From Lytechinus pictus (lineage: Eukaryota), in the NCBI RefSeq assembly GCF_037042905.1, contig NC_087251.1:14696001-14760000 (forward strand): 64,000 nt of DNA, written 5' to 3'. Position 1 is the stretch's first letter. The number at the start of each line of letters is the position of its first letter. Position numbers and translations under genes: made by a program. The notes under the pieces are model-generated. The model was not told where the DNA came from. It searched no databases and saw only the letters and a list, made by a program, of their open reading frames with translations. Of this stretch, positions 36,676 through 64,000 are shown piece by piece.

Positions 36676-36885
36676 GGGGGGGTCGGGTGTCTGGACACTT
36701 TATATTTTTGAAGCCTTCTTTTTTGTCTTTGGATTACACTAAAAATATGAATTCAATAGTTGTAATCATCTTCTATTTTGCTCTCTATATTTCCTAACAT
36801 TTTCTACTAAAAATTTATGAAACTTCGCTTGTAATTTTTTCCAAATGACTTTCTAAAATTGATCGTCCGGACACACAACTGGGTA
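36676..36885. repeat. Dispersed ~210 bp repeat, copy 1
   Basis: Same-orientation match to ~48518-48729 (GGTCGGG.GTC.GGACACT.TATTTTTGAAGCCTTC...GATCGTCCGGACACACAAC). Confidence 0.85.
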
Positions 36886-39200: not shown

Positions 39201-41359
39201 GTATCATGTAAGCCATACTTGCAGTGATATATTGTAATAAATGAAGCCAGTGAGCTAACTCAAAGAATAGCACTGTTAGCAGTGCCAATCAAACCCACTA
39301 CTACCACATGCCAAAAGGTAGTGGAAAGAATTTTGCGCTAGCCCGTTCGAGTCTGGGCGGTTCCAGTTCTCGGCTCTGCCTCAAAACTATCTTGTATTGT
39401 GTAAATGCTTGCGCGCATTTGGTAATTCACTGATATTGTTGAGTGGGTGGGTATACACAAAGATCGATACGAAGGCGTGACTTAACTTTTCCGAGGACTG
39501 ATTCGGAGAAATGATGTACAAGTAAGCTATTATAACAAAATGGGTGTACTTTGGAATGGTTATTGGGCGTGGCTGTAATCACATATTAATAATGAGCGAA
39601 CTGAGCTGAGCTCAGCTTAACATAAAATTACTTATAAAAGATGTCCCGCCGATCGTTCATTGACCTGTGATCTATGAGAATTATTTTCCTTTGCGACTTT
39701 GCTCGGAAGATGCATCATTTGTTTATTTTTCTAATAAAAATCACTCATTTTATTGTAAAACAGTAACACCTCAAAACCCTTTTAAAGCATGTTCCAAACG
39801 ATCGCGCATGTCGGCGACTTCCATTCCTAAACATTTGTCTTTGTGACTTTGTCAAGAAGATGCGCGCGACCGCAATCAAAATTTTGATGTATTCCTTTGT
39901 TTTTAAACATCGCCGATTCGATTTTCGATTCGATTTCGATTTTAGAAGCTTAACTGCCGATCCGATTTTCGATCTGATTTTTGATCCGATTTACAACATT
40001 AGAAGAAAAAATAACACAAATTTGTTCTTACATCATTATAATCAAGAATAACTTTACCCGTCCGGCGCGCGTCCGGAATCATGATGTAATTTGTCACGCA
40101 CGAAAATAACTGTTTTTCGTGGAGGGGTATGCGGCAAGTGCGATGCAAAGAAAATGGTTGGTAATGGTTGGTAAATATAAAATAATTTTACCATATTCAT
40201 AATTTTCATATTTGGAATAGCAAGTGCGATTTTTCTCGATTGTATTTCCTCTAGTTGTCATTTTTAAAGCACTGAAATAAAGGTGTCCGGCAATAGGATA
40301 CACTGCCATACTATTAGTATACTAACAGGTTGTTTGCTTGACAGTGACATTGTCTTGACAGAAATAGCCCTAGGGCTAGGCCATGTAGGCCTAGCCTATT
40401 ATTATTAATCGGTCTAACGTTAAGTCACTTGTCTAGAGAATCGTTAACCTCTCTACTAGATCTACGTAAATGTTAACCTGTTGTTGCCCCTGAATCAACA
40501 TACATCTGCCCACTGACCACTCCTAGTACCAATGAGGTCCAAACATTAACATGTATGGACCTCATAGGCGACATTACCCAAATTATGGGTTGGACAATGC
40601 TGTTCTGATTTCCAACCCAAGACTTTGGTAAATGTACACCTTAATACAAGTTAGAGTTATCCGATATACCTTTCATTCGGACGGCAAACCTTTATTTAGT
40701 TGTAAAAATAGTTTAAATTAAAATCGATTATTGTTAAACTTACATTTCAGGCCCTTTTTGTTGATTTTCGGTGAGCGTTCCACACAGCTGCGACGAGTGA
40801 TCAACTCCGAAGTGATACGCATACTGGTCAGCTGATCGGTCAGGTGATCGGTTGGTTATCTTTTTGTCAGACGTTCATAATTTATGTTAAGCGTATCAAT
40901 CTTCAGTATCTTGATTTCAAAGCATCAGTATTGCAGAGAAAAGTCATTATTGATTGGAATCAGTGGCGGGGGGGGGGGGGGTTGGGGTGAGCATTTCTGC
41001 CCGTTCCCCCTTTTGAGATTTATAGTAAACATTTTGGAATTAAATATTTTGTTAATACTAGTTATGTGCCCCCCCATCCCCCCTCCCTTATGAGAATCAC
41101 AGCATTATTTGTAATGGGGATATTTCGTTCATATTCTTTTCTCTTTTTTGCCTTTTTTGTGCTTGTCAAATTTTACTGGGAACAAATTAACAATATGACT
41201 TTCTATACATCACTTTTAGGGACAAACTTTTTATAGGGGTGGGGGCTTGCCAAATATAACGGTGGAAAAAGTGACCTTCTTTTTTAGTGACAACTTTATA
41301 AAAAAATTGTCAAATTTTACGCGAGACAAAATGACCTTCGATCATTGCTATAGTTAAAA

Positions 41360-41390
<31 letters not shown>

Positions 41391-41803
41391 GGGGGGGGGG
41401 GTTGCCAAATATCACGTGGACAAAATGACTTTCCCTTTTCTTATTTTTGTGGGGGGGGGGGCTTGCCGAATATTACGCGGACAAAATGACTTTCATTTTG
41501 AGTGACCATTTTTTTTTTAACTTGTCAAACTTTACGCGAGACAATATAATGACCGGTTTTTTTTTTTTTTTCAAAGCATCAGTATTGCAGAGAAAAGTCA
41601 TTATTGATTGGAATCAGTGGCGGGGGGGGAAAAGAGAAAAGAATATGAACGAAATATCCCCATTACAAATAATGCTGTGATTCTCATAAGGGAGGGGGGA
41701 TGGGGGGGCACCTACTTAATTTGGAAAATCTTGGATGCGCCTCTATATAGTTTGAATCATAATGAAGATTAAGATCATGCGTATATATAGCTTACATCCA
41801 CGG

Positions 41804-42719
41804 CAGAGGCGTAAACCGCCGGGGGCATGCAGGCTGGCCCTTGATCCCCGGTCCAGTGGATTTCACCAAAAAAAAAACGGGATAAGAGAAAAGGAATGAA
41901 GGAAGGAAAAGAAAGAAAGAAAGAAAGAAAGAAAGACAGAAAGAGAAAGGGAAGAGAAATAAAAGGCCATAAAAAAGCAAAAGGAAAGAAAAATGCATGC
42001 GAGAATAATTCCGAATGTTATGTCAAAATCTATTGCAAAATTGATATTTGTAATAAAAGTGACAAAGGTTTTGCTCGCTCGCCTCTTCATCTGGTAGGCG
42101 CGTAGCTAGGGGCGGTGCCCCCCGAAAAGGTCCCTCCCCCCCAAAAAAAATAAGGAGGGAATAGAGAAAATAAAAAGCAAAATGAGAAAAGGGGGATGTA
42201 TATAACTTAGTTTATAATTGTTTTTCCTTTTTTGGGGGGGAAGGGGTCAAAACATTAACGTTATGTTTTTCTATAAATAGGTCTAATTGCTAAATATCCA
42301 GAGTTATCGAGACCCACCTGCTGATATTGCACTGGGGGTACACGATGGAAGGGTTAGGCCTAGGGGCCCCCGAAAGTTCTACAACCAAGATAAAAAAGAA
42401 ATGAAGGGAATTAATGAAAAGAAAAGGAAAAGTGTAAGTTAAGATATCTATCTCAAATTTAGATTTGCACGAAAAGTTTTTTTCTCGCTTGCTTCACTCG
42501 CTTGGAACATATAAAGCAACTTTATTCCCACGCACCATGTATGCCTACATTGGCCCTCTTTCTTTCTTTTATTTTATTTTTTTTTTACTCATCACGCTAC
42601 CGTACTGCCACACACGGGTTTGCCCTAATGATCGTGGACAATCATAAAAAATATCATTTTCATACCATGTGACTGGGAAATTTTTGGCTCCACCCCCCCC
42701 CCCCCCTCTCGATCCCTGT
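41804..42719. mobile_element. Degenerate relative of the hAT-like element at 17494-19115
   Basis: Starts CAGAGGCGTAAAC; shares GGATTTCACC, purine tracts, GCTCGCT motifs, GGAAGGGTT.GGCC and a poly-C end. Confidence 0.55.
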
Positions 42720-43542
42720 ATCGATTTTGACTTGATAGGGGCCTATACCTGATGGAATTAGCTTCATTCAATATAAAATCATAACGGATAGAACGCCTTG
42801 AATACAGGCCAAACAGCCTAACGACATTGCCGTGTCACGTGACAACCAGTATTAAACGAGAATGTGCACAACCCTATGGCGACAAAATTTGCCGCAAAAG
42901 TTGAGCAAGTTCTGGACAAAAAGGCTTCAATACCCCAAGAAAAGACCAGGCGAGTACTATTTATACATTTTTTCAATTTAGTAATATCTAGAGTCTAATT
43001 TAAGAACATATTTCGTCATGGAGCTCCATGGTAAGATCAAGTAATTTAAGTCCAACATTTAATTCGCGTGCACTCACTTTTTTAACACAGGAATTAATAG
43101 CCTTGGTGCTTAGAGTGCCCACTGACATTGTCAATGATTTTAACTTTACCGGTACGCTACCGGTGCAGTAGACCAAAAGCTTCAGTCTCTGTATTTTGGT
43201 TGTTCCGCTGAACTGCGTTGGCTCACTGACAGTAAAATGTCAGAAATTGTTGAATAAATCCCCAGAAACGACGGTTATTCCTGTCTACCGGTGCAGCTGC
43301 AGTTTATTTGACGGGAAATAATAAGATGGCAAATATAGCGATCTTCAACGCTTATATATAAGCGTCGAAATTTGTAGCCATCTCCTTGTATTAGTCTATA
43401 ATATACGACGTGTCAAATTGTAGCGAACTAGTTCGCCATTTCCAGATCTCCTCTATATATATATATACGAGGGGGAATTGTAGCGAACTAGTTCGCTATT
43501 TTCCAGATCTCCTCTACACAAAGAAGAATTGTACAGGAAACC

Positions 43543-43651
43543 CGCGCATGCGCGATACGCTCGTTCGATCGCCAGCGTAGTGCGTGACGTCATGTTTCAT
43601 TCACAAATCTTGAGCTGTGATCTCATTGGGTGTTTTGGCTCTCATTTGCAT
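43543..43651 (+). promoter_or_regulatory. Promoter-like motif cluster inside the left TIR
   Basis: NRF1-like CGCGCATGCGCG (43543-43554), CRE TGACGTCA (43585-43592), inverted CCAAT (43625-43629), octamer ATTTGCAT (43644-43651); donor GTAAGT at 43834. Confidence 0.45.
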
Positions 43652-45039
43652 ATTTTCCCATAATACAAAACCTATGTAGTGCGAGAAGTTTCTCTGCGAA
43701 CCACCGATCAACCTCATACTAAACACGACGTATTTCCTTCAAGATTCCGAGTTGAAAATCTCATTTTCTTCATACGGTGTAGCTACATTACCTCGGAAAA
43801 TCTGATGATATTTTGCGGACTTCTCGTCATTTGGTAAGTCATATTTTTGAAGATATTTACCGTCGAGTAGTGAAAATCGCATGACTGTGTTCGTTGTTTA
43901 CTGTGTATCAATGTGTGCAAAGTGTATGTTAGCGACATGTATGGATACAAAGCGACATACGGAAAACCGTCTACACCGATGTTGATTTTGTGGACTGTTT
44001 TGCGGTGGTGTTTGTGCTAGCCCGCATTGGTGTATTTTAAGCATGGCGAGCGTTGCATTGTGATCGGGCTTCGCTCGGGTGTTCGTGAAGGGCCGTGGAA
44101 TGCGTGTGGAGCTCGGCCATGCGGCCTTGGGGCGTGAATGTAATGAATGGCAGCTGCACCTGTTGTTTGTATGCCTCTGAAATTGAAGCTCTCTTTCTAT
44201 TTATGGCATGGCGAATATCCTAGTGTTTTAGGAATATAAGTTTGGGCATTTTATTTGTTGGGACTTTCGTGATACTGATTTTACTTTTAAAACTGGACAC
44301 TGATTTTTTTTTTTCGGTAAAGCCAGGGACAATCAATGGAATTGTTGAGACATGATAATATATCATAGAGCTATAGCTCTATGATAATATCAATAATTAT
44401 AGACCCTACAGAAATACAGGAAATTAAATTGAAAAATAATGCAAATTATAATCACTGAAGTGCGGATGTGTACCAAATTGATATGGATGGAGATTGATTT
44501 TGATTTTGTTTCCTTCAGTATTTTTTTTTGCAAAAATCAAATATTTTCCTGCCCTGTTCTTTTTCTTATCAATTTTTTTTTTATCTTTGAATTACCAATT
44601 ATGACAGCAATAAATCAAACTCAAAAGTTCAAACTAGTATGGTCTATTTTCATTGTATAATCTACAGCATAATCCGAAGATGACTGACACTGATTGAAAG
44701 ACTGTATTTCACAAGACCCAAAGGACAAAGGTCGAGAGCTACAAGTTCATATCGCATTTTACAACTGCTCAAGAAGGTGAAGGATTTGGGGATCACTAAA
44801 TCAAGACGACGATATTCGGATATAAAAACAATTTTATTTTTATATGAGATAATCTTTCAACTTTATTTTTACTTAAAATTGAAGAAGTGAATAATCTATA
44901 AAAATTATGAATATGATGCTGAGAAGGATCGAAAACCATTATCTGTCAACAATGATGCACTGTAAAAATGCTATTATGTATATATGGTCATAATGTTCTT
45001 GTGATTTATTTGTAATTAATTTATGTATTATGTTGTTTC

Positions 45040-45262
45040 ACTGTTGAAAATAATTCAAACAATGTTTAATATGTGAATTGCATAGTAGTTTAAACATTTT
45101 AAACAAGTGTTTAAGAACTTTATAAACAACAAAGTTTAAACTCTAATATTTAATCATCAATAAATAAAGCATGGTTGTTTAAGATTTTGAACACTTATTT
45201 AAACTGTTTAAACTACTATGGGATTCACACAGTAAACAGCATTGTTTGAATTATTCTTAACA
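45040..45262. mobile_element. AT-rich foldback MITE relic
   Basis: TGTTGAAAATAATTCAAACAATG...CATTGTTTGAATTATTCTTAACA and inner ATAGTAGTTTAAACA / TGTTTAAACTACTAT arms. Confidence 0.65.
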
Positions 45263-45547
45263 TATATATATATATATGCTCAATAAATTCTTATGCATTA
45301 AATTTGCCTTCAATAAGAATTTCCAGTTCAGTATGAATTATACAAAAAACATGGAATTCTGGAATGACATTCACTTTCACGGAATACATGTAAAAACACT
45401 GTTCATGAAAAGTATAATGAAAATCATCAAAAATAAATTAAAGCCAAACTGTAAAGAGTAAGCCAACCCCTATATCATGATTTCTTTTAATAAAGATTTA
45501 ACAATTTGCAACTGCATCAACTTTATTATTTTTATATGTCACTATAA

Positions 45548-45708
45548 TACCCCAGTCACATTTCCCCTACGGCGGCCGTACGGCAAGTCGAAAACAGCAG
45601 TTTAACATTATTTTGTACCAGTGTACATATACATGGTTTGAATAAAAATGAATAAAACGGCCGTTTTCGACTCGCCGTACGACCGCCGTAGAGCAAATGT
45701 GACTACTA
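45548..45708. mobile_element. Small palindromic MITE, copy 1
   Basis: AGTCACATTT...GTACGGCAAGTCGAAAAC / GTTTTCGACTCGCCGTAC...AAATGTGACT; same family as 45923-46089. Confidence 0.8.
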
Positions 45709-45922
45709 TACTAAGGACGTCAAAATTTAAAGAACATCTTTTAATGGAAAACTGGAAAGGATTGATATAAAGTCCAACGAAGTTACTTAAAGCCAGATTT
45801 ATTCACATATTGATCAATTAATTTACCCCATATTTTCTACATCTTTTGAAATTGTGATTTAATTTTCTGAATGCGTGTTTTAGTTCTGTCAACCATTGTT
45901 TTTCATGTCTATGACATACTCG

Positions 45923-46089
45923 TACCTCGATCGGTCACATTTGCCGCACGGCGAGTCGAAAACAGCATTTTTATTCATTTTTATACATGGATAAACCACC
46001 AATATGTAGCTGGTACAAAAACAATATTAAAACGACTGTTTTCGACTCGCCGTACGGCCGCCGGAGAGCAAAATAATGTGACCGAGGTA
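45923..46089. mobile_element. Small palindromic MITE, copy 2
   Basis: TACCTCG...GGTCACATT...ACGGCGAGTCGAAAACAG / CTGTTTTCGACTCGCCGT...AATGTGACCGAGGTA. Confidence 0.8.
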
Positions 46090-46328
46090 TAAGGACATAG
46101 CCCCTCGGTCCGTGAAATCCCAAGATCAATTGTTCCGAGGCTTCCAAATAATTAATGGACTTCTGCATTCATTAGACGGGGTCCCAAACTTCTCTTTATA
46201 AATTGAATGTTTTTCAATTTCAGATATAATTAATATAACTTTCATAAATAATAGCTTTCTGTTAAAGTTTATAATTCGTATCCAATTATTTCGTTTTTAA
46301 TATGAATTATAAGTATTTTCATTTGTTT

Positions 46329-46532
46329 CAGGGGCGGATCCAGGATTTTTTAAAGGGTTTCAACCAAAAATAATTAGGGGGATTTGGTCTTCACTTTCTA
46401 AAGGGGGGGGGGGGGCACGCTTCTGTTTTAACACCATTTTTAAATTACAAATTTTACTTGTGCCTCTCAATGGTGGGGGGGGGCGCACGGGCCGGCCGTG
46501 CCCCCCCCCCCCCCCCCCCGGATCCGCCAGTG
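46329..46532. mobile_element. hAT-like MITE
   Basis: CAGGGGCGGATCC...GGATCCGCCAGTG; flanks ATTTGTTT / ATTTTTAT (6 of 8 match). Confidence 0.7.
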
Positions 46533-48517
46533 ATTTTTATTGTTCTTTCATTTGTTCACCCATGATCACGAATGTTTTCATAATGCATACATGTACCTCA
46601 CGATTTTTTTTTAAATACGATTCTAAATGTTATGAAAATAGTTCGACAGGCCTATTTTTTTTTGCGTACCACACTCATGGAGCTATACTGTTGCTACTCT
46701 GCATCAGCGTGTAGTGTGCGAGGGGGGGGGGGGTAGGATGGTCGCAAAGAGCGATCGAGCAAAAGAGAAAGTGGTCCATAAATGAAGAGGGGATGTTGAG
46801 AATTGAGATCATGTGTGTGTGTTTGGGGGGGGGGGTGTTCGAAGCGAATGTTGTCACTGCTGATTACGATGATGGTTGATTAATGTTTACATCTTAATTT
46901 GGGCGATTTTGGAAATGTTTTCTTGTACTGGGGAGAGGTGAGTGATTCAGTAAGTTTCCATAGAAGTGCAGTTTTAAAGTTACAGAAGAGGATTTCACCC
47001 AATGAAGGGAATTCGGGAAACACCATTTTCAAGCAATACTAATTCGATCACGTGCCATCGGCTTTAGGGCCGAGTGTTCTCGTTCACATTCCAACTATCA
47101 TTTCATAAATAGGCACTCTTACAAATTAGGCCGATGCCGTTGTAAAGATAACTATTTTTGAAGCGTTATTCAGATATAAAATATATAAAGACAATTAAAA
47201 TTGAACAATTCATCGAAATTTCCAACGATATTCAAATAAAAATAGTATCAACTCGTGTAGAGATAGGGGTGAACAGACGAAATACATGCTCCTAAACGTT
47301 CAGACAAATCAATTAACTTGATATCTATATCTTTCGATGAATTGTTCAATTCCATCAGAAATATGCTGCATGAAGTCTTGTCAGATTGTTGAATGTGAAC
47401 TTCTATTGGAATCTGTTGAATCACGTACCCCTCCCGATCCAAGGTATATATTTCCCAATCACCATAGATAACATACGGTTACATAATATTGTATCTTATT
47501 TACATTGTTAGGTACTGACGATATCTTCATAAATACATTCACAATTATTTCATGAAATGTCACCATTGCCGTGGCTGTGACATGTTAAAGCCTGAAAGCT
47601 ATTACATAAAATATTGTTTGCACTTTGATATAATAGAGGTCAGATATATTCTTGTCATCGAATATAAACATTCCATTATTATGCACCATGTTTCAAAATG
47701 GGTAAGAAAATTACATTACCATCGGCATCCAGATAATTAGTCCATGATTAGACCAGGGAGATCGGAGTCTACCCCTTTTTTTGGAATTTCTATTTTCTCA
47801 GCACATCGGAGTGAGGAAAAACCACCAAAAACCCTATATTGGTATTAAATGATAACCATTTATTGTAAACAACGTTTAGGACTGAGGGAATTGGGGGAGA
47901 GGGTATGGGGAGGGAGAGTATTTCATTTTCCAATAAAATGCAAAAGTATAATATTTTCGTGAACATGAACGAAATAAACAAAAAGTTAATAGCTCAACAT
48001 CTTTATTGAATTGTTCAGTAGAACAATAATACTAGCTGTAATAATGTTAAAAACATTTCAGTCATTGTAATTACATGTGTTTCATCAATCTCAATATATT
48101 GACAATGAAAATAATTTTTTAATATAGAAAATATATTTTATATGACTATTGTGAATTTTAAATAATCCCATTTTAGATCGTTGATTAAACCACCTTTCTG
48201 AAAACAATCACTTTGATATCTCATGTAAAATCAATTTTAGATAAAAAAAATATTTTCTGTTAAAATTGATTTCTAAGATTCCTGTCTGAAAGTTGATGAA
48301 ACACCTTAGCTCGAGTAGAAATGCATAATACAAAGATATTGAATACTCAAACTCTTATAATGATATTGTCCAGCAAAACAGAAAATTGTCAAATAGTTAA
48401 TGAAAAATAATTGAATTATAAACCAACAATTAAGTCAAATAGAATATGAAAATTATAACACACAATCCCGTCACATTCGTTCTCACTCTCGTAGTTGTAG
48501 GATGGGGGGGGGGGGGT

Positions 48518-48729
48518 GGGGTCGGGCGTCCGGACACTATATTTTTGAAGCCTTCTTTTTTGTCTTTGCATTACACTAAAAGTATGAATTCAATGGTTGT
48601 AATCATCTTGTTCTCCATAATATTTCCTAATATCTTGTACTAAAAATTGATGAAACTTCGCTTGTAAATTTTTCCAAATGACTCTAAAATTGATCGTCCG
48701 GACACACAACCTGTCCATACAACTGGGTA
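48518..48729. repeat. Dispersed ~210 bp repeat, copy 2
   Basis: Match to 36676-36885. Confidence 0.85.
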
Positions 48730-49354
48730 GACTCATGCTAGTCTAGAAGCACTCCCACACTCCAGACAAAGTGTCACAAGTACATGAATTCTCGTAAGCA
48801 CACAGAAAATACAACTTATAATATGCTCTAATAAAATGTAGTAATGTACTGCCTTTCAGGGTTCAAACATCCTACAAATACACTCTTTTATAACATCAAA
48901 TGATTCTATTAAAAAACAAAGTTAATTTATGAAGTCTGCGCCGAGCATCTAATCATAAGGCAGTCTACCAGGAAATTCATCTATCGCGGGGGCAACGCAG
49001 AATTCAGTACAGACAAGCATACATGTACATTAAATACGCTGTGCACTGTACTCTATGCAAATACAATTTATGCAAGCGACCTTCGGCCTTGCGTAACCCG
49101 ATGAAAACCACATGTTTTGCTTAGACTTCGGACACTGCCTGCCGAAGTGCCGATATCATCCGAACATGCGCCCGAAATCTACACGCTGGCATCTTTACCC
49201 GACAGAGTGTTGTGCTCCGTGAGTCAGCCGATCGCGCGGTGTAAAGATTCTCACACACAGCGCTGGGCGAGGAAGGGAAGAGGGTCGCGCGATCAGCCAA
49301 TCAGCGTGCAGGGAATCCGTCTACTGTGTGCCTATGGGGAAAGTTCTTCGTGCT

Positions 49355-51240
49355 CTATATACAAACGACGGGAAATTGTAGCGAACTAGTTCGCTATTTT
49401 TCGGATCTCCTCGATATATACACGAGGGGAATTGTAGCGAACTAGTTCGCTATTTTCCAGATCTCCTCTATATACAAACGACGGGAAATTGTAGCGAACT
49501 AGTTCGCTATTTTTCGGATCTCCTCGATATATACACAAGGGGAATTGTAGCGAACTAGTTCGCTATTTTCCAGATCTCCTCTATATACATACTACGGGAT
49601 TTGTAGCGAACTAGTTCGCTATTTTTCGGATCTCCTCGATATGTACACGAGGGGGAATTGTAGCGAACTAGTTCGCTATTTTTTTATTTTTCCAGATCTC
49701 CTCTATATACATACGACGGGATTTGTAGCGAACTATATACGAGGGGGCATTGTAGCGAACTAGTTCGCTATTTTTTTTATCTCCTCTATATATACACCAG
49801 GGGGGAATTGTAGCAAACTAGTTCGCTATTTTTCGGATCTCCTCTACATGTATACGACAGGAAATTGTTGCAAACTAGTTCGCCATTTCTCATCTCCTCT
49901 CTAAAATATAAACATGGCAAACTGTAGCGAACTAGTTGGCAATTTTTCTGATCTCTTCATATACACGAGGGGGAAATTGTAGCGAACTAGTTGTCATTTT
50001 TTCCAAAGCTTACATTATTGTGAAGGCTTCAAAGTGAAAATCTGCAGGTTTTGGCTGTATATATTGATGCCATATTGTCAAATTGTAGCAGACTAGTTCG
50101 CTATTTTCCAGATCTCCTCTATATATATATACGAGGGGGAATTGTAGCGAACCAGTTCGCTATTTTCCAGATCTCCTCTATATCCATACGACGGGATTTG
50201 TAGCTAACTAGTTCGCTACTTTTCGGATCTCCTCTATAAAATTATATACACGAGGGGGAATTGTAGCGAACTAGTTCGCTACAATTCCGTCTCTTGTATA
50301 TATAAAGATTAGAAAAATAGCGAACTAGTTCACTAATTCCTCCTCGTGTATAAAATTTTATAGAGGAGATCCGAAAAATAGCAAACTAGTTCGCTACAAT
50401 TTTCCGTCGTATATATAAAGAGGAGATCCAAAAAATAGCGAACTAGTTCGCTACAAAAGAAGAGATCCGAAAAATAGCGAACTAGTTCGCTATAATTTCC
50501 CGTCGTATATATATAAAGAGGAGATCTGGAAAATAGCGAACTAGTTCGCTATGATTTCCCGTCGTATATATAGGGAGAGGAAATCCGAAAAATAGCGAAC
50601 AAATCCCGTAGTATGTATCTAGAGGAGATCTGGAAAATAGCGAACTAGTTCGCTACAATTCCCCCTCGTGTATATATCGAGGAGATCCGAAAAATAGCGA
50701 ACTAGTTCGCTACAATTTTCTGTCGTATATAGAGGAGATCCGAAAAATAGCGAACTAGTTCGCTACAAAAGAAGAGATCCGAAAAATAGCGAACTAGTTC
50801 GCTACAATTTCCCGTCGTATATATATATAGAGGAGATCTGGAAAATAGCGAACTAGTTCGCTACAATTTCCCGTCGTATATATATATAGAGGAAATCCGA
50901 AAAATAGCGAACTAGTTCGCTACAAATCCCGTACTCCGTAGTATGTATCTAGAGGAGATCTGGAAAATAGCGAACTAGTTCGCTACAATTCCCCCTCGTG
51001 TATATATATCGAGGAGATCCGAAAAATAGCGAACTAGTTCGCTACAATTTCCCGTCGTTTGTATATAGAGGAGATCTAGAAAATAGCGAACTAGTTCGCT
51101 ACAATTCCCCCTCGTATATATATATATAGAGGAGATCTGGAAAATAGCGAACTAGTTCGCTACAATTCCCCCTCGTATATATATATATATAGGCCTAGAG
51201 GAGATCTGGAAATAGCGAACTAGTTCGCTACAATTTGACA
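49355..51240. repeat. Minisatellite of ~55-60 bp units with core palindrome TAGCGAACTAGTTCGCTA; orientation inverts at 50272/50273
   Basis: About 33 full or partial cores counted by eye. Unit TTGTAGCGAACTAGTTCGCTATTTTCCAGATCTCCTC-(TA)n-linker runs forward to 50272, then as the reverse complement. Confidence 0.95.
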
Positions 51241-52029
51241 CGTCGTATATTATAGACTAATACAAGGAGATGGCTACAAATTTCGACGCTTATATATAAG
51301 CGTTGAAGATCGCTATATTTGCCATCTATAAAATACCGTATTTGACGATCTGCATATTCCCTACATGTATGATAACGTGTGGGACCGAACATAAACTCAA
51401 GATCTAAAATCGTGCTCGAAACAAGTATTTTTACCAGTTATAATGTTATTTACTCATATATTGCAACTCACATTTCTTTCCTTACAAGGACAGCGTGATT
51501 TCGAACAACATTCAATATGTTTTTCAACATTTTTATCGCAAATTTGAAACCGAATTGTGAGGAAATCCGACAGTTCTGTGACCCTCTGTTTAAGGTGTCG
51601 CCGATCATCAAAAATAAAAAAATTGTGCACTGATCTGACGTACTGGATGGAAATGTCAAAGCCCGGTTGACTCCAGTATAACGTTAGTCAGGGCTGGAAA
51701 CGGGTCGGGAACAAAAAGTTCAATAATTTCCTCTGAAATCTTCTGACGAAAATGTTATCACTCCATTCCCCCCCCCCCCCCTAATCAAGGCCAGGGGCCA
51801 AAAAAAAATGTAGACACTTTTATATAATTTAAAATATATTTTTACAATTTCACATTTTCCTTAAGAAGTGAATTTGTTTAATTGCTGCGACTGGCCTAGT
51901 GAAATTTTACACAAATATTATGACTCTCATTATTATGCGCATATACTATCAATAAAATATATTTTGATACTTTGTTACTAGACACTCATTAATTTTCTGA
52001 ATCTGCTCAGGACAAGTTCCTACTAATGA

Positions 52030-52130
52030 TACATCATCATCATCAACAACATCACCATCTTCACCATCACCATCATCCTTGTCATCATCGTCATATCATT
52101 ATCATCAACAACATCAAAATCATCATTGTA
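52030..52130. repeat. (CAT/CAC)n low-complexity tract
   Basis: Explains the poly-His ORF 52026..52295. Confidence 0.85.
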
Positions 52131-54734
52131 TTTAGGCCTACTATTACTATCATTATTAAACTCTTTAAAAAGATCTATAAAAATACACCAAAACTTTTCA
52201 GATATTATTTTCAAAATGGGCCAATACAGGAATATGAGTATGTTGTGTTTGTAAGAATCAGTCATTGTCTCATGGACAATCAGAAAGGAATCTGAATGAT
52301 TCTCTGTTCATCCAATGTACTCAATCAATTGCAAAAACAAAAAAACTTTGTACTAAAAAATTGATTTTATTTCCATCCTACGTACAAAAGGTAATATGTA
52401 CAATGGTTTGACAATTCAAGGCTTGATATAATAACTTTTAAAAATCATAATCATGAAAAATACTGCAGTATTTAGGGCCATGTTGGGAAAGATGTTACCA
52501 TGTTTATAACTAGGCCCCAAGTATAAACAATTTTAGCATCTGTTCAGACGCTATAGATTTTATAAAGACTTGTTTCTGTTTCATAAAAGATGCATCTAAG
52601 AATTGAAGATAAGAGCCAGGGACATTTTATTCTTCCAAAAACAGATGTTTATAGAAAAATTACAGGAAAAGGGTGGCTCTTTAATGGTTAAGAGCAAAAT
52701 AATGTTTTCTATCAACAAAATAGAAATTGTTATGACTTTCTAGTTTCTACAAATGTGTCACCACATGCTGGTGACAATAAATGGTGAGACAAGTACTTGA
52801 AAATAAAAAGGTATTTCTGACTTAGGAAAATTAAACATCCTCATAGTGAATATGTATTTGTACAATTGTGTCAAACATGATGTGAATGCATGCAAACACA
52901 ATCACAGCCAGCGAGAAAATACATGCCATTAAACCTACTCTTCTAACCATCTGATATACAGGTAACTCTGCAGATGTCCATTTACCAGGTATTTGGACCG
53001 AAGAAATCTGTTCAGTTTCAAACATTTCAAATAATCCAGTCTGAAATATCATAGAAGGTCGACTGATATAGACTTTAACATTAAAAACCATTGACATTTG
53101 AGAGTATAACTGTTACAGGATTTTGTTCTGGAGAATTTATTGAAAACAGATTACATTATAGGGATGTTAATATACAGTAATGAAATGCAATTCAGGGTTT
53201 AATCTTAAAATGTGATTAAATGTAGTTATGTTTATATCACTGATTTGAAATTGAAATTATCCTGAAACCATGATCCTAATGAGGATCTTGCAGCACATTG
53301 TATTTATATCAATCTCATCAACAACAGATCAGTGATGTGAGCACAAAGCAGATGGAAGCCCGAATATCTGCATTGTATTGGTTACTAAATCTTTGTAAAG
53401 ATTTATCAAACTATGATGAACAAAGGAAAAGAAGGTGAACATGATCCTTATGAGAGCACACTGCTAGCCTTAGTGAGCTTGTAAAAATTAAGCTGATTTT
53501 TGTTTACTTTACTTTTACTTGGATGTAGAGATGTAAAGCTTGTAGCTTATTTGCCCCTTTTTACTTAATCTTTTTTTAATGTAAAAATTGACTAACCAAA
53601 TCACATAAACAAAGTCCATAGATGTGAGCTTATTTTGGCATGTGAAGAGCTTGTTGATATTTTTTTCTTTCATCAAGCATTTTATTACCCAAAGTCACAA
53701 TGTTCATGTATAACATAATCTGCCTTACTTTGGTAGCAAGTAACAATAGTATAATTTACTGCAAAAGAGTAAAAAAATTTCTGAGATTTACTCAGGCTAC
53801 AATGCATTACCAAGATGGTTAACTAGCAATATCTCAAAGCATAAGTGTTTCATACAATACCTTTTTTTCCGTGAAGGAAAAAATTAATATGTAATACATA
53901 AACACATTAAAAACTGAATTTCAGTAAATATGTCAGTTGTTATCTGATTTCAAATTAAGGCAGTATGAGCCAACAGATCTCAATTTTATATAGCATATTA
54001 AAAGAGTCAAAGAGCAGTTAAAGAGTACAACCAAGCATGATCTTTTTAGGCCCATTTGTACCAAACTCCTCGGATGGCACAATGCTCTAAATTAACCTTG
54101 TATGCATCAAAGGCATAGGTAAAATTTTCCTCAGTCCCTAAAGAACTGATAAGAGCCTCAGTTGACTTGGTAATAGTTAGTCATCATCATAATCATTGAT
54201 TTTGTGGCCATCCTTGTTGTATCCTGTTGAATGTCATCACACCGTATATATTCACAAGCTGTTAAGTTTCATCCATCTTTTCAATCCTGTTTGAAAAGAA
54301 GAAAATTTAAAATTAACAGTTATAAGCCAATAACAGTGAGTTTCATTATGTTTTTATCAGGAAAACTCCAATGAGGCAACGAAGAAAGAATAAGGGGAAA
54401 ATTATCACAAGCTGCAATGAGTACCATAGGATGTTGGCAGAACAAAATTACACAGAGATCCAAGGAACAGCAATAGTCAAATGACTTGTATCATCGATGC
54501 AAATCTTTTCATATGCAAGCTTGATAATGATATAGAAGCATAATTCTTGCAGAAGCCCTCTTAATATCCTCTTAAGTCACAACTGAAATTCGGAAGGACT
54601 CCCTTGCACACACAAAAAAAAACATTGATCATAACTATAAATATCTAAATTGCTTAATTCAATTCCTGCTATCAAATTTTCCATCGTAAAATAACACCAA
54701 TACATGTATGATACAAAATCATTAAAGAAATAAC

Positions 54735-57859: not shown

Positions 57860-58286
57860 CTGAATTTAAACAAGAAATCAATATTGTGTTTCAATCCAAG
57901 CAAAAATTAAAGAAATTAAAATCTTAACAATTATGGATAGAATAAGGATGACAATACACTGGAATAATCTACATTTGTAACTGCTTTTCAACTATCCATC
58001 ATCTTTATGGATAGCATTCAGTTACTGTGTATGCATCTCCATGTAAAACAGGTGAATTTATGTTCTGTGTAGGTGCTGGTGTTGATGTTGGAAGCACAAA
58101 ATTGATTGCCTCCCTAGCTTTAAGCAACAAATGCGAAATTTAATATATCTTCTAAGTTACATTATTGTGAGATTTCTGCTGGGACTAGATCCATTTTAGG
58201 TTTGGTGTTGTGCTTATATAAAAACCAGCCCAACACCAACACCCAAAGGTCAACACTGAACTTGAAATCATCCAATGTGTTATTAC

Positions 58287-58457
58287 CTTGTGAGGTTGAC
58301 CAATCAGTGGATTGTCTGAGCATCGTTTGTTGATGACATCACGGATTAGATGCTTCTGACCATTGTATGTAGTGAGGATACTGATCTTCTCTGCCGGGTA
58401 TCCCAGCAATCTCATGTACATAAAGAGTGCCACCACATACTCAGCTTCAGCCAGGTT
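58287..58457 (-). CDS. AQR: AQR exon
   Basis: 171 bp: [42 protein letters not shown]... Confidence 0.96.
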
Positions 58458-59193
58458 CTAAAAGAAAATGTAAGAAAAAAAACCAGATATTAAATGAGTA
58501 CCTAGAGTAGGCAGTTCAAGAAGAATATCAACTGCACACTAAACAAACAATCTGTGACAAAATTTTGGAACAAACAATTTTAAGCAGACTTTATAGAGTT
58601 ATAAACAAATATAATTATCTTAACTGAGAATCAAAATAAACATATAAATACTGGAATCATAATTTTGGATCAACAAAACACCATAATTTATCATTAAATT
58701 TGAATCGGCTACAAGTTATTGACATGTGTAAGATTACACTGTTGCGATTAAACCTGATATTGCTGGTAAATACACATAAAGAGGGTTCATACCATGAATT
58801 ATAACTTTAGTACCCATCCAAACATTAAATATGGATATCGCAGAGGTATGTTATTTTTTTCTGTCATTACTTCACATAGAATATGTTTTTTTTTATATGA
58901 AGTATGTGGTTAGCTTAAGTAAATCATACATATGAAAATAATCTTATGAAAAGTCTACTTCTTATTCACTATCTTTTTAACTTGAATTATTTTTGACCAT
59001 CTGTTACATTAAGTAAGAATCAGATTTTTAGAACATAAACAATTCTAAATGAAAATCAATGCAATAATATCCTTCAACAAACTGATGAAAGTATTACTAC
59101 TCATTATATGGCCACCATTAGATTCATGAAGTTAGTCATGAATACAAAAATGGATTTGATATTAAGACCAAAATGGAATCTCTTGTTTTTTAC

Positions 59194-59365
59194 CTGATAG
59201 AAGTAAGGATTGGGTTCTGATTCACCGACCCCGTTGAAATTATCTACATTGATGAGTTGATAGTCAAATGCCAACCCTGGGTTTGAAGTCTGAAACTCAG
59301 GCATCCTATTCACATGAGGCAGGTTGCCTAGGCTACGATACCTCCAGTTGTAGAGAGTAGCAATG
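59194..59365 (-). CDS. AQR: AQR exon
   Basis: 172 bp: (S)[18 protein letters not shown]...[13 protein letters not shown]. Confidence 0.95.
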
Positions 59366-59958
59366 CTATCAGGAATTTCAACAACAAAAATGAGAAAGAT
59401 ATTGATGTCAAGAGGATGGTAAGGAACCCTCAAGGTACATTCATTGCACATTGTTTCCAGATTAGGAACAAAAGCAGAATATCAATTCACTGAAAGTTAA
59501 AGCAACATTTTCAACAAGAAATATGCAAATGATTGAAACCCTAAAAGAAGCTGGGTGAGTGGCCCCATAATGCACATCCCAATACTTTCCATTAAAAAAA
59601 TGTTGATGATTATAAGCGTTTATGTTAGAAAACAGCTGTATATATTTCAACTTGACCACATTATAAAGTTTGGCCAAATGACTTTTAGCGCAGAGCCTAA
59701 AATAATGAAAAATATCTTCTCACCTTAGCAATGCTAAATGTATGTAAGTTGCTGCTTTTCACACAAAGTGGCAAAATTAAAACATCTTCAGACATTTTAT
59801 CAACTTATATTAATTTCTGATGAATTAACTTTTAAATGATTAAATTTTATGTTTGCTTGTATTAATCATTATGTAAAAGCAATTAATCAATTGTAATAAA
59901 TTGGTTGTAGAACAAATTGTTTAATTTCATGCTAGAGTGAATAACTTTATTACCCTAC

Positions 59959-60146
59959 CTTGATCTTGCTCTACCCTGTGCGTCCAGATCAACAGTAGGG
60001 ACACCTAACCTGACAAACCGGGTGAAGAGAGATTGCTCCATGTTAGAGAACTTCTGGAAGGCCATGTTCTTGATGACCGGTGGCAACTGATGATGATCAC
60101 CAATCATGATCCATCGCTTCAACCGATTGAAACCATCCTCAGGATT
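59959..60146 (-). CDS. AQR: AQR exon
   Basis: 188 bp, absent from the ORF track: [62 protein letters not shown]. Confidence 0.96.
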
Positions 60147-60182
60147 CTAAATTGTCAAATATAGGCAATTCCATGAGCTGGT

Positions 60183-60340
60183 GGGTGTTTCATAATGCTG
60201 TTTGTAAGTTAAGAGCAACTTTAAGAATGACTGGTGAACCTTTCTTACGCGCTAAATAATCACCAATGAACATTTAAATGGTGAATATCATTTCCCACAA
60301 GGAAGGATCACCAGTCGTTCTTAAGGTCACTCTTTCTTGT
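60183..60340. mobile_element. Degenerate intronic MITE
   Basis: GGGTGTTTCATAA start; inverted arms TTAAGAATGACTGGTGA / TCACCAGTCGTTCTTAA. Confidence 0.6.
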
Positions 60341-60943
60341 ACAGAAGGGGTGTGAGAGATCACAAATAAAAAGAGCTGAAAAAAGCTGAAGAGTGTCAAA
60401 ATAAGCTGAAATTGAAAGAGTTCCAATACTTCTTGTAAGAGGAAAGCTAAAATAAGTAAAAATTAAGCCGTAAATCAAAAGAAAAAAAGCTAAACTCTTG
60501 CAAACCTGGTACATCTAACGCTGTATTTACTTCATGTAAAGAACTGCACAAGCCATGATTATAAGAGTATTACATGAAACCCTGAAAAGGATGTCTTAGG
60601 AACTGACTATGAGGTGTAGAATAGAGAATCTTGGAAACTACAATCACACAGGAGAAGAACAAAATTCTTAGGGAACTACAAACCTAAACGGAAGTGTGAA
60701 AATATGGGACCTTGATAACTGCATATTTGTATACATACAAATCCATAATGAACCACCTTTCTTTGGCTATAGTTTCTCACAAGTGATTGAACGGCAAAAG
60801 TATTTTTCGCGCTTGACCAAAAAAATAGGTTGCCAAAATTTGTGATGAATGATCTAAATTTGATAAATTCTTAGCAATACTTTATTCATTGTTAAATGAA
60901 TAAAGTTCCTAGATTAACCTGAATATAAAACTGGGGAAGTTAC

Positions 60944-61015
60944 CTGAAGGAGCAGAGGGATGAAGGTTTCAATCTCTAATATTTGAGCAGATTCTTCCAT
61001 CAAGATGTTATCATA
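60944..61015 (-). CDS. AQR: AQR exon
   Basis: 72 bp: [24 protein letters not shown] (Walker B, EESAQ). Confidence 0.96.
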
Positions 61016-61483
61016 CTGTCAGGGAAGATAAAGATATATAAAACATCAACAGTAACAATAAAAAAGGGAGCATGAGCCATTCTCATATAATGGGTCATTT
61101 TATACTGGAATAGAGTTAAGAGTAAGCTTTGTTAATGTATATACATGTACTTGTATTTTCAAATCCCTTTTTACATTACCAGGCAATTGGAAATATCATT
61201 GTCATTACTTGCTAGACCACTAGACAGCACTCAAAGTGTAAAGTAACAATTCCATGACAACATGAACACTTCATAGAATAAAAAATTTAAGTGAACATAC
61301 ACATTCCAATTCAAGGTCTTTGTTCAAGTAGGAATTGTGTATGAAACTCTACGTGAAAAAATTGTAAAGATATTCAAAAATTTATGTCACAACCTCCCAC
61401 CCTCATATTCTTGATAAAGAAATATCAATGTCCATTTTCACAAAAAGCTTAACCCTAGAATCAACATGAAAGGAGAAATATAC

Positions 61484-61621
61484 CTGGAATCTAACATCGA
61501 CCAAGTCTCGCCTCTTGAGGGCAGCATGCGTACATGTCATTGCGATGATCTTGGCTTCCTTGATGAGCAGGTACTTGGATCGGTCTTTCCCGCTCCGCAA
61601 TAGCTCAAATGCTCGGAATTC
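61484..61621 (-). CDS. AQR: AQR exon
   Basis: 138 bp: [46 protein letters not shown]. Confidence 0.96.
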
Positions 61622-61972
61622 CTGTTAATGTAAAAAACTCCATATTAGTCTTGTTATTTTAGCAAATTTTATCAAATTGTATTATTATAGAATGAAACCA
61701 AAAATAAATAATGAGAGCAATGCATCCCCAATGTAAAAACAGCCCTTGTAAATAGCAAAATAAGCCTCTTGAAATACATTTAGGTTCAATTCAAAATGAA
61801 ATATTAGATTTAAGAATGAAGAAAAAGTCACTGCCCTGAGTATCTTATCATTTTTTTTTAATCCAAACAAGTGGTGTTTTCAAAGATTCAAAGAATAATG
61901 AGAACACACCTCCTTGAATAATGAAATAAAGTTTCTTTAAAAAATAAAACAAAACTATTATATTACTCTTAC

Positions 61973-62014
61973 CTCAAGCTGTTGGAAGATCTTCTTGATA
62001 TGGCGATAACAACC
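61973..62014 (-). CDS. AQR: AQR small exon
   Basis: 42 bp AG/GT: GCYRHIKKIFQQLE; in frame with both neighbours. Confidence 0.93.
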
Positions 62015-62273
62015 CTGTAAAACAATGAAACACAATTCATTTTTTCCATTTTAATAAATAACATAAAATTCAAATAATTTGAGAATATGTTGGAATAATG
62101 ACAATACATTGAAAGAAACATAATATTGTACAATTTCCTTAAATAGGCAATAAACCTCCTAAAAAAGATAAGTGAATTGTGAAATACATAACTACTATCT
62201 CATGTCAATGCGACAGATGAGTAGGCAGACAAGTATTTGCCGAGGTGAGTCCTCATGTGAGAGTGAAGACCAG

Positions 62274-62429
62274 GGGGGCGTTTCATCAACATTTTCGTCC
62301 GACAAGTTGTCAGATCTGACAACTTTTCTGGATTTTGATTGGCTGAGAAGCACTGTTACTAAAGTAACTGTCGGATAAATGGGAGTTGTCGGATAAAACG
62401 TCTGACAAGTCCTTTTATGAAACGCTCCC
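62274..62429. mobile_element. Harbinger-like MITE in AQR intron
   Basis: GGGGGCGTTTCAT...ATGAAACGCTCCC flanked by a 3-bp CAG repeat. Confidence 0.7.
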
Positions 62430-62644
62430 CAGAGCTGCTGCAAGGGAAGGAATCCAAAGTGGGACTCCTCTCTCTTTTTTGATATATACCTTCATGGGAA
62501 AATGCTCAAATTTGCCACAGCCATTTTCCATCCAATTTAGAATAGAATATCAACAGTCTCAAGAATTGTACAAAGAATTTTTGTAATGTGAGCGGAATAA
62601 GAAAAAAAATCCATGTGAAGTAATGACAGAAACAATGAACATAC

Positions 62645-62812
62645 CTCTGCAATGTCCATGCCCTGAGCATAGGTCTCCCCTTTGAAGACTGGTTGTGGGG
62701 CATTCTCAAAGAACTTATGGAAAGGGAAGTGAGTGACAATGTCTTCTACTCCAACCTCCTTGCCTCCCTTAGGCTTGACCTTACTCAGAAACTTCTCCCA
62801 TCGTGCTACCAC
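62645..62812 (-). CDS. AQR: AQR exon
   Basis: 168 bp: VVARWEKFLSKVK...FPFHKFFENAPQPVFKGETYAQGMDIAE. Confidence 0.95.
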
Positions 62813-63677
62813 CTGATAAAAGAATGACAAGGGTGATTATAAGGTCAAATATTAGGAGAGTGACATTACAGGAAACCCTATTTGACTGGTGAAATATTTC
62901 ATGGAGATTCGACTGATTCACTCCTTTTAAAAAAACACAATCTTTTAACACAAGTAGAAAAAATACAGTAAGATATGTTAATAAAATATCAATTTCGAAG
63001 CCTTAATATTCCAGGTTCTTTATCCATCCATCTGAATATTATCTGTTACACCATGCTTGCTTACGTAACAAGGGGAACATCTACGTTCTGGTTCCATGGT
63101 TCCATATTTCATGAGGCAGAAGGCCAAATGGAATGTGGAACCAGAACTTAGATATTTCCCGTATTCTGTAATGATTTTATCTCTCTAAGTTTATCCTTAT
63201 ATTGTTGCAGAATAAGGGAAATAAAAATAAAAAAATTCCATAGATGTAAGCCTCTGCATTTTGTGAGTGAATCTCGAAAGAAAATTATTCATGACATCAC
63301 AATGATCACAGTAAAAAGAATGCACATTTTGCCAAAGAAATTTCTGCACAAATAGTAGTGCACACACGATGCTTAAATACGTTCCCATACCATGTAATAC
63401 GGTCTCATATCACATGGTTGAAATGAGCACCGGGCACGCGAGTAACAATGAAAACGATATTAAAACAGGTAAACATCAAATAAGTAAATACAGGTTTGTC
63501 TTACAAACAAATTGACCAATCAGATAACAGAACTCATGAACAAATGGCCCAGTTAGAGATAAACCTATATACCACAAAAATAAGAGTTTAACAGATTTCT
63601 TTCAAGCTTTGAAAATGTCTTTTATTTACTGCTGGACATTTCCACATGGGCAAGATGACTCCAGTACTAGAATTTAC

Positions 63678-63813
63678 CTGATACAGATAGAAGTGACCAG
63701 CTGTCTCACAGGTGTATGCAACATCACCAGGAACTCCAAGACTCTCCTGTAATCTCTCTACCTCTTTGAGCAGCTCAAGACGACGGCCAAGGACATAGTT
63801 CACACGGCCATAC
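63678..63813 (-). CDS. AQR: AQR exon (gene continues beyond the window end)
   Basis: 136 bp: (R)[45 protein letters not shown]. Confidence 0.95.
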
Positions 63814-64000
63814 CTGGTAATTGCACAAAATGAATTCCATTTAGGGCATGTTACAATACAAAGGGAATACTGCAACTTAATCTTGAACTGGTAACTATTT
63901 ACTTGTATCCTTAGTTCCAAGGAGATGTTTTACAGTGATTATTATACTACTACTAGTAACAATAATTGTTTATAATTGTTATGATCATTATTATCTTTAT

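What the first reader, a model, noticed from the sequence alone, without database searches (positions are those of the whole stretch)
43324..51327. 8 kb transposase-less element with ~200 bp TIRs built from palindromes; superfamily unclear
Seen: the ends are near-perfect inverted copies. Each has ~95 bp of unique sequence, including the 18-bp palindrome ACGCTTATATATAAGCGT (43348-43365), followed by units of the TAGCGAACTAGTTCGCTA repeat: 2 on the left, about 33 on the right. Termini are AG...CT and flanks are ATAATA / ATAAAA, readable as a 3-bp ATA duplication or a 6-bp duplication with one mismatch. Known: AG...CT ends, long TIRs and 6-bp TSDs describe Polinton/Maverick elements, while TIRs containing tandem subrepeats describe foldback elements such as Drosophila FB and sea urchin TU. 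Inference: a non-autonomous member of a possibly unclassified family. Near-identical TIRs around an interior holding several decayed MITEs suggest recent movement of an old cargo-laden element, or TIR homogenisation.
Basis: partly seen in the sequence, partly recalled or inferred. Interest (0 to 1): 0.8.

Follow-up and report, generated by a model that had tools for sequence, protein, structure and literature searches.

The report
Transposon nested inside a Mutator-type foldback
The 8-kb "mystery" element is two gene-less jumping-DNA elements, one inside the other: a 2.2-kb mirror-image element, likely of the known Mutator/foldback kind, whose left arm is split by a 5.8-kb insertion likely of the Transib/RAG kind, so it is an ordinary nest rather than a new family.

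Summary
The mirrored ends and repeat counts are real, but the boundaries and the one-element reading are wrong.

(1) The interior, 43517-49352 (5,836 bp), is a separate insertion. It has CAC..GTG ends and an exact 5-bp duplication (CTCTA) inside a 57-bp repeat unit. Contigs from three runs end exactly at its left end, and one carries its right end on other DNA.

(2) Without it, the outer element is a ~2.18-kb near-palindrome: 17 units one way, one hybrid unit, 17 the other way. The "2 versus 33" asymmetry disappears.

(3) AG..CT are probably not the termini. An exact 9-bp direct repeat, TATTTGACG (43305-43313 / 51339-51347), lies 10-11 bp further out, beyond short non-inverted end motifs. This is the layout of Mutator-type foldbacks such as Tm1. 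Chance estimates are 0.04-0.5% (1.5% under the loosest null). Polinton end motifs are not met.

No coding remnant was found in the inner element. No genome was available, so no empty site, second complete copy or transposase was seen, and both superfamily calls rest on one copy. Verdict: new member of a known kind, low interest.

The parts
43305..43313 (+). Left copy of the outer target-site duplication, TATTTGACG (9 bp exact; also readable as 8 bp exact or 10 bp with one mismatch)
   Evidence: the 9-mer occurs only twice in the window
43314..43323 (+). Left non-inverted end motif (GG plus 8 A/T bases) outside the TIR; inferred true left end 43313/43314
   Evidence: inference by analogy with Tm1
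43324..43420 (+). Left flanking domain of the TIR, 97/97 identical to 51231-51327, holding an 18-bp palindrome at 43348-43365
43411..43516 (+). First two ~57-bp units of the left arm (cores at 43421 and 43481), cut by the inner insertion
43512..43516 (+). Left copy of the inner 5-bp duplication CTCTA
43517..49352 (.). Inner 5,836-bp non-coding element with CAC..GTG ends (8 of the first 9 bases match), likely Transib/RAG-type; CpG-rich at both ends
45053..45251 (.). Hairpin MITE with TA flanks inside the inner element
45549..45710 (.). High-copy MITE-like repeat, copy 1 (ends approximate)
45925..46087 (.). Same MITE-like family, copy 2, opposite orientation, TA flanks
46328..46533 (.). High-depth small repeat with G/C-run inverted ends (ends approximate)
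47197..47352 (.). Small element with ~20-bp inverted ends (approximate)
48500..48712 (.). High-copy repeat, 88% identical to 36676-36879
49353..49357 (+). Right copy of the inner 5-bp duplication CTCTA
49358..50256 (+). Continuation of the LEFT arm: 15 units in left-arm orientation, with a unique ~80-bp spacer (about 49997-50075) and a restart at 50076 that copies 43411-43516
50257..50288 (.). Hybrid unit, a perfect 32-bp palindrome where unit orientation flips at the self-complementary core
50289..51230 (-). Right arm: 17 units in reverse orientation
51231..51327 (-). Right flanking domain of the TIR
51328..51338 (-). Right non-inverted end motif (reads CGG plus 8 A/T bases from outside); inferred true right end 51337/51338
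   Evidence: inference
51339..51347 (+). Right copy of the outer target-site duplication TATTTGACG

Best explanation
The 8 kb is a nest of two non-coding elements: a ~2.18-kb foldback, likely moved in trans by a Mutator-type transposase, whose left arm holds a 5.8-kb CAC..GTG insertion, likely moved by a Transib/RAG-type transposase. Shown in the sequence: the nesting, the mirror symmetry of the arms, both direct repeats and the hybrid unit. Shown by contigs of other runs: the inner right end occurs on other DNA. Inferred order: (1) A parent with arms of 57-bp units likely lost its middle. Each 18-bp core is its own reverse complement, so cores in opposite arms are also direct repeats, and a deletion between two of them would leave the hybrid unit seen at 50257-50288. 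(2) The foldback likely inserted with a staggered cut, duplicating 8-10 bp; the cores are probably transposase-binding sites. (3) A copy of the inner family, which likely already carried its MITEs, would then have landed in the second unit of the left arm and duplicated 5 bp. Whether step 3 happened at this locus or in a donor copy is not known.
For: Nesting: the mirror unit in the right arm holds CTCTA once, while here it flanks both sides of the insertion. It is the best direct repeat at offset 0 in a +/-15-bp scan. 49353-49423 mirrors 51000-51070 at 70/71, next best place 63/71. Arm identity after removal is 195/196 and 148/151 in the outer 400 bases, falling to 83-91% inward. An inverted match of 8 of 9 or better arose in 42 of 200,000 random pairs. 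Other runs (4 of 15 runs laid): a contig ends exactly at 43517 in X12, X15 and X6; X12 record 8 matches 48991-49353 and then carries 555 other bases; X6 contigs span MITE/unique junctions at depth 132-196, like the rest of the interior. X3 record 19 matches 43323-43436 with no differences after 89 other bases. Outer duplication: exact 9-mer at offsets 10/11; near-symmetric 9-bp repeats arose in 114 of 100,000 random flank pairs, 128 of 27,701 single loci, and 10 of 27,701 when all four letters were required. Tm1 has non-inverted end motifs outside composite TIRs with 8-10-bp duplications, and its motifs start CGG and end CCC, as here under the 8-bp reading (PMC3169594 passages). MULE duplications are 8-11 bp (PMC6446971 passages). 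Transib and RAGL elements have CAC ends and 5-bp duplications (PMC1131882, PMC7204232 passages).
Against: One copy only; no empty site, no second complete copy and no transposase was seen (no genome). The offset scan was made after reading the Tm1 paper; with any offsets up to 40 bp the chance is 1,527 of 100,000. X3 record 19 stops matching at 43323 and so carries neither 10-11-bp end motif exactly: either the motif varies by at least one base or it is flank. No joint skipping the inner element is among the 15 joints shown (138 hidden). The inner ends match only over 9 bp, against about 13-15 bp reported for RAGL and 38 bp for Transib. No nonamer or 12/23 pattern beats chance (437 of 1,000 shuffles), and its target is not GC-rich (2 of 5).
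Confidence: 0.72

Rival explanations
1. Same nest, but the outer element ends at AG..CT and made a 3-bp ATA duplication, like a PIF/Harbinger or Pangu-type (PHIS) element; the 9-bp repeat is chance.
For: ATA/ATA is exact at the edge of the perfect inversion. Among zero-offset readings it is favoured 1-11 fold over 6 bp with a mismatch. PIF/Harbinger TIRs usually start with A or G, and Pangu TIRs with AG or GG (PMC4482050). X3 record 19 loses similarity at 43323.
Against: A 3/3 match arises in 2.1% of random pairs, against 0.04-0.5% for the 9-mer. ATA fits neither TWA (PIF/Harbinger) nor ANT (Pangu), and Pangu TIRs are 11-40 bp.
Confidence: 0.12
2. The outer element is a Polinton/Maverick-derived remnant with AG..CT ends and a 6-bp duplication carrying one mismatch.
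For: AG..CT dinucleotides; 5/6 match, seen in 0.7% of random pairs; long TIRs.
Against: The ends are not (AG)3 or (AGT)2, the motifs reported for vertebrate Mavericks (PMC8097293 section 7). The duplication is imperfect although the outer arms are 99.5% identical. No polymerase, integrase or capsid remnant. A longer exact repeat exists.
Confidence: 0.03
3. The 8 kb is one element with its native middle, and the CAC..GTG ends and CTCTA repeat are coincidence.
For: Both outer ends are intact, so the composite could move as a unit; no contig joint skipping the middle is among those shown.
Against: The arm mirror continues across the middle. The 5-bp duplication is exact relative to the mirror unit. 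Contigs end exactly at 43517 in 3 of 4 runs, and the inner right end occurs on other DNA.
Confidence: 0.03
4. Nest and outer Mutator-type call hold, but the inner element belongs to another CAC-ended group (EnSpm/Chapaev, recalled to make 2-4-bp duplications) or to an undescribed one.
For: Very short terminal match, no nonamer, AT-rich target; no protein evidence.
Against: At zero offset only the 5-bp reading is an exact repeat, and 5 bp with CAC is the Transib/RAG signature.
Confidence: 0.1

Closest known systems
Tm1, Mutator/Foldback (Phantom-like) family of root-knot nematodes (PMC3169594; passages read)
   Same: Composite TIRs with variable numbers of tandem units; short non-inverted motifs outside the TIR, starting CGG at one end and ending CCC at the other; 8-10-bp duplication; non-coding derivatives; nested insertions in some copies.
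   Different: Unit 57 bp with an 18-bp palindromic core (Tm1: 14 bp); end motifs 10-11 bp (Tm1: 7 bp) and alike only in the terminal 3-4 bases; no middle region; no FLYWCH/MULE transposase copy seen.
Tetris and other foldbacks: Drosophila FB, sea-urchin TU (PMC4079207; passages and section 17 read; FB and TU details recalled only)
   Same: Flanking domain plus tandem-repeat outer domain; 8-10-bp duplication; assigned to Mutator on duplication length without a transposase.
   Different: Arms meet at a hybrid palindromic unit, with no clear inner or middle domain; no sequence comparison with TU or Tetris was possible.
Non-autonomous Transib / RAGL elements (PMC1131882, PMC7204232, PMC10629977; passages read), for the inner element
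   Same: CAC..GTG ends, exact 5-bp duplication, A-rich bases after the CAC, no coding capacity.
   Different: Only 8 of 9 terminal bases match; heptamers CACAAAG / CACGAAG differ from CACAATG; no supported nonamer; AT-rich target; 5.8 kb with MITE cargo.
Polinton/Maverick (PMC8097293; passages and section 7 read)
   Same: AG..CT at the edge of the perfect inversion; long TIRs.
   Different: No repeated end motif, no perfect 6-bp duplication, no genes.

Membership tests
Foldback structure (outer) | Long TIRs with a flanking domain and internal tandem repeats | tested here: met
   97-bp domain plus 17 units per arm, ~1.1-kb arms
Mutator/MULE (outer) | 8-11-bp target-site duplication | tested here: met
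   Exact 9 bp (8-10 readable) in one copy; range from PMC6446971
Mutator/MULE (outer) | Duplication abuts the TIR, or abuts short non-inverted end motifs that are conserved between copies (Tm1-type) | tested here: inconclusive
   10-11-bp motifs present; the one other end seen (X3 record 19) does not match them exactly
Mutator/MULE (outer) | MULE DDE transposase in an autonomous partner | not testable with these tools
   No genome held
Polinton/Maverick (outer) | Repeated end motif such as (AG)3 or (AGT)2 | tested here: not met
   Inversion starts AGATGG; motifs, reported for vertebrates
Polinton/Maverick (outer) | Perfect 6-bp duplication | tested here: not met
   5/6 only
PIF/Harbinger, Pangu (outer) | 3-bp duplication TWA or ANT | tested here: not met
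   ATA against PMC4482050
IS3EU/GingerRoot (outer) | TA..TA termini with 6-bp duplication | tested here: not met
   Needs a 1-bp indel and one mismatch; rule from PMC10045372
Transib/RAGL (inner) | 5'-CAC at both ends | tested here: met
Transib/RAGL (inner) | 5-bp duplication | tested here: met
   CTCTA, exact, one copy
Transib/RAGL (inner) | TIR similarity over 13-38 bp with a nonamer-like box (Transib) or TR2 block (RAGL) | tested here: inconclusive
   8/9 then divergence; best offset 9-mer 7/9, reached by 437 of 1,000 shuffles; AA rule met for 1 of 12 spacings tried
Transib/RAGL (inner) | Transib or RAG1L/RAG2L coding sequence in this copy or a parent | tested here: inconclusive
   None in this copy, as expected of a non-autonomous copy; a parent could not be sought
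Named Repbase/Dfam family | Sequence match to a library consensus | not testable with these tools
   No such library offered

The most novel reading that the evidence does not exclude
The palindromic cores make this family self-truncating: any two cores in opposite arms are direct repeats, so gene-bearing parents collapse into pure hairpin elements at a core. The parent may be the 30-kb element with 57-bp arrays and an unknown protein family noted elsewhere in this genome (e1-7880695, unchecked). That would tie an unassigned protein family to Mutator-type end chemistry. The inner element may also mark an undescribed Transib/RAG-like lineage that needs only ~9 bp of terminal match.
Probability: 0.15. 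Interest if true: 0.5.

Novelty: new member of a known kind. Interest (0 to 1): 0.2.

Why it matters
Mainly as a correction. Nested insertions make foldback arms look asymmetric, and non-inverted end motifs hide the real target-site duplication, so ends read at the edge of the perfect inversion can suggest a false new superfamily. If the hybrid unit is what it looks like, it records how a foldback loses its middle. The two families give concrete probes for finding their transposases in the host genome.

Tried and rejected
Whole-genome search: no genome held.

Collection scans: metagenome contigs gave 9 exact hits to a 19-mer of the TIR start, and all 9 diverge right after it (7-16 of the next 41 bases match), so chance. 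Viral contigs and bacterial genomes gave 0 hits to the repeat unit.

Coding capacity of the inner element: 90 of 90 stop-free frames of 36 aa or more gave no Pfam hit at its curated cut-off (best E 0.0016). Six read-through frames gave 0 Pfam families and only E of 0.2 or worse in the PDB. One exon-like stretch (44661-44855) gave 4 hits among 1.84 billion proteins, all tandem-repeat proteins with at most 13 bits per stretch, rejected. The outer arms were not scanned for coding remnants. Rfam: 0 hits in 42000-53000.

A 12/23-like asymmetry in the inner ends is not above chance.

My own reading until one search was a 3-bp ATA duplication; it was replaced when the offset scan found the 9-mer. Academ-like (TAG..CTA, recalled) and IS3EU readings need extra mutations. 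The AcademH and Phantom papers were not held, so nothing from them was read.

Bins without cover in X3 are no evidence of absence.

Paper searches listed no description of these two families. They were keyword searches, and supplements with TIR tables were not opened.
Full report
Setting. The window is AT-rich, spliced-looking animal DNA. Earlier notes on this genome call the host a sea urchin; I did not check this.

Observation. The inversion 43324-43467 / 51184-51327 is real (97%), with the outer 97 bp identical. The unit is about 57 bp. But orientation matters. Fifteen of the right-hand units face the same way as the two left ones, one at 50257-50288 is a hybrid forming a perfect 32-bp palindrome, and 17 are reversed.

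The interior is an insertion. The left array breaks off at 43516 and resumes at 49353. Between lie 5,836 bp that start with CAC and end with GTG, matching at 8 of 9 terminal bases and flanked by CTCTA on both sides. The mirror unit in the right arm holds that 5-mer once, so it is a true duplication, and it is the best repeat at the ends. The 71 bases after the insertion mirror 51000-51070 at 70/71, against 63/71 for the next best place. With the insertion and one duplicate removed, the arms are 1,108 and 1,055 bp. Identity is 195/196, 148/151, 174/191, 151/179, 146/176 and 83/96 in successive 200-base bins from the outside in. Each arm then has 17 units.

Other runs agree (4 of the 15 runs; only the best rows are shown). 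A contig ends exactly at 43517 in X12, X15 and X6, as an assembly graph does at the edge of a repeat with differing flanks. X12 record 8 matches 48991-49353 and goes on for 555 unrelated bases; I read minus-strand record coordinates from the high end, checked on X3 record 17. X6 contigs cross from MITEs into the surrounding inner sequence at depth 132-196, which suggests the MITEs are cargo of the inner family; depth here is not a copy number. No joint skipping the inner element is among the 15 shown (138 hidden), and no empty site was seen.

The outer ends. At the edge of the perfect inversion the flanks give ATA/ATA or a 5/6 match, which random pairs reach in 2.1% and 0.7% of cases. After reading that Tm1 foldbacks carry short non-inverted motifs outside their TIRs (PMC3169594), I scanned offsets up to 60 bp. 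One long exact repeat stands out: TATTTGACG at 43305-43313 and 51339-51347, 10 and 11 bp outside AG and CT, its only two occurrences in the window. Between it and the TIR each end has (G/C)GG plus eight A/T bases. The duplication can be read as 8 bp (ends GGG and CGG, 11 bp each), 9 bp, or 10 bp with one mismatch (GG..CC). Chance for a near-symmetric 9-mer is 114 of 100,000 random pairs, 128 of 27,701 single loci, and 10 of 27,701 when all four letters are required; with any offsets up to 40 bp it is 1,527 of 100,000. The test was chosen after the fact. Against this reading, X3 record 19 matches 43323-43436 without differences but not the bases further out, so it has neither motif exactly; one substitution in the right-hand motif would explain it, and so would a true end at AG. 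I put the Mutator-type reading at about 0.8. The outer element is then about 2,184 bp.

How it likely works. Neither element appears to code: the inner element gave nothing credible in Pfam, the PDB or a 1.84-billion-protein search, and the outer one is almost all tandem repeat. Both would be moved in trans. Duplications of 8-11 bp and long TIRs mark Mutator-like elements (PMC6446971), and Tetris was assigned on the same grounds (PMC4079207). The cores are the best-kept part of the unit (87-100% per column). By analogy with the extra transposase sites in Galileo's TIR repeats (cited in PMC4079207), they are probably binding sites; this is untested. Because a core is its own reverse complement, cores in opposite arms are also direct repeats. 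A deletion between two of them would remove the middle and leave a unit with a left-arm flank on one side and a right-arm flank on the other, as at 50257-50288. This is inference from one copy, and the centre is also rearranged (a unique spacer and a restart of the arm's first units at 50076). CAC ends with a 5-bp duplication are the Transib/RAG signature, but the inner ends match over only 9 bp and show no nonamer beyond chance. I put that assignment at about 0.7-0.8 given the nest.

Comparison. The outer element works like Tm1, Tetris, FB and TU. Membership of Mutator is met on duplication length, inconclusive on end motifs and untestable on transposase. Polinton fails two tests, and PIF/Harbinger, Pangu and IS3EU fail on duplication sequence. 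Earlier notes list many foldbacks and Transib copies in this genome, among them a 30-kb element with 57-bp palindrome-cored arrays and a 3.6-kb one with 18-bp palindromes. Look-ups by sequence returned no relevant match, so kinship is open. Repbase and Dfam could not be searched, so either family may already be named.

Verdict. Real but ordinary: a nest of two non-autonomous DNA transposons of known kinds. Interest 0.2.

Noticed in passing
window 43169-43287: 119-bp TAG..CTA miniature element with an exact 9-bp duplication (CCGGTGCAG), ending 17 bp left of the outer duplication; very high depth in three runs. TAG ends with 9-bp duplications recall AcademH (from memory; paper not held).
   Followed up: partly
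window 43517-44260 and 49000-49352: Both ends of the inner element are CpG-rich and show promoter-like words by eye (CRE-like and CCAAT-like, recalled motifs), with a canonical splice donor near 43832. They may be leftover inward-facing promoters, as in two-gene RAGL transposons.
   Followed up: no
window 49997-50256: A unique ~80-bp spacer is followed by a near copy of the arm's first two units (4 substitutions, 2 small gaps against 43411-43516); the centre folds as its own hairpin.
   Followed up: partly
window 41063-41714: Another element with 85-bp, 99% complementary arms; no clear duplication at zero offset.
   Followed up: partly
window 42300-43113: Near-identical long contigs in three runs (X12, X15, X3), several times deeper than much of the neighbouring unique DNA in X12 and X15; a repeat or a transcribed stretch.
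   Followed up: no
window 44361-44386: Perfect 26-bp palindrome inside the inner element.
   Followed up: no
window 58185-63929, minus strand: Exon-like frames that recall the spliceosomal helicase Aquarius (name from memory, not searched).
   Followed up: no
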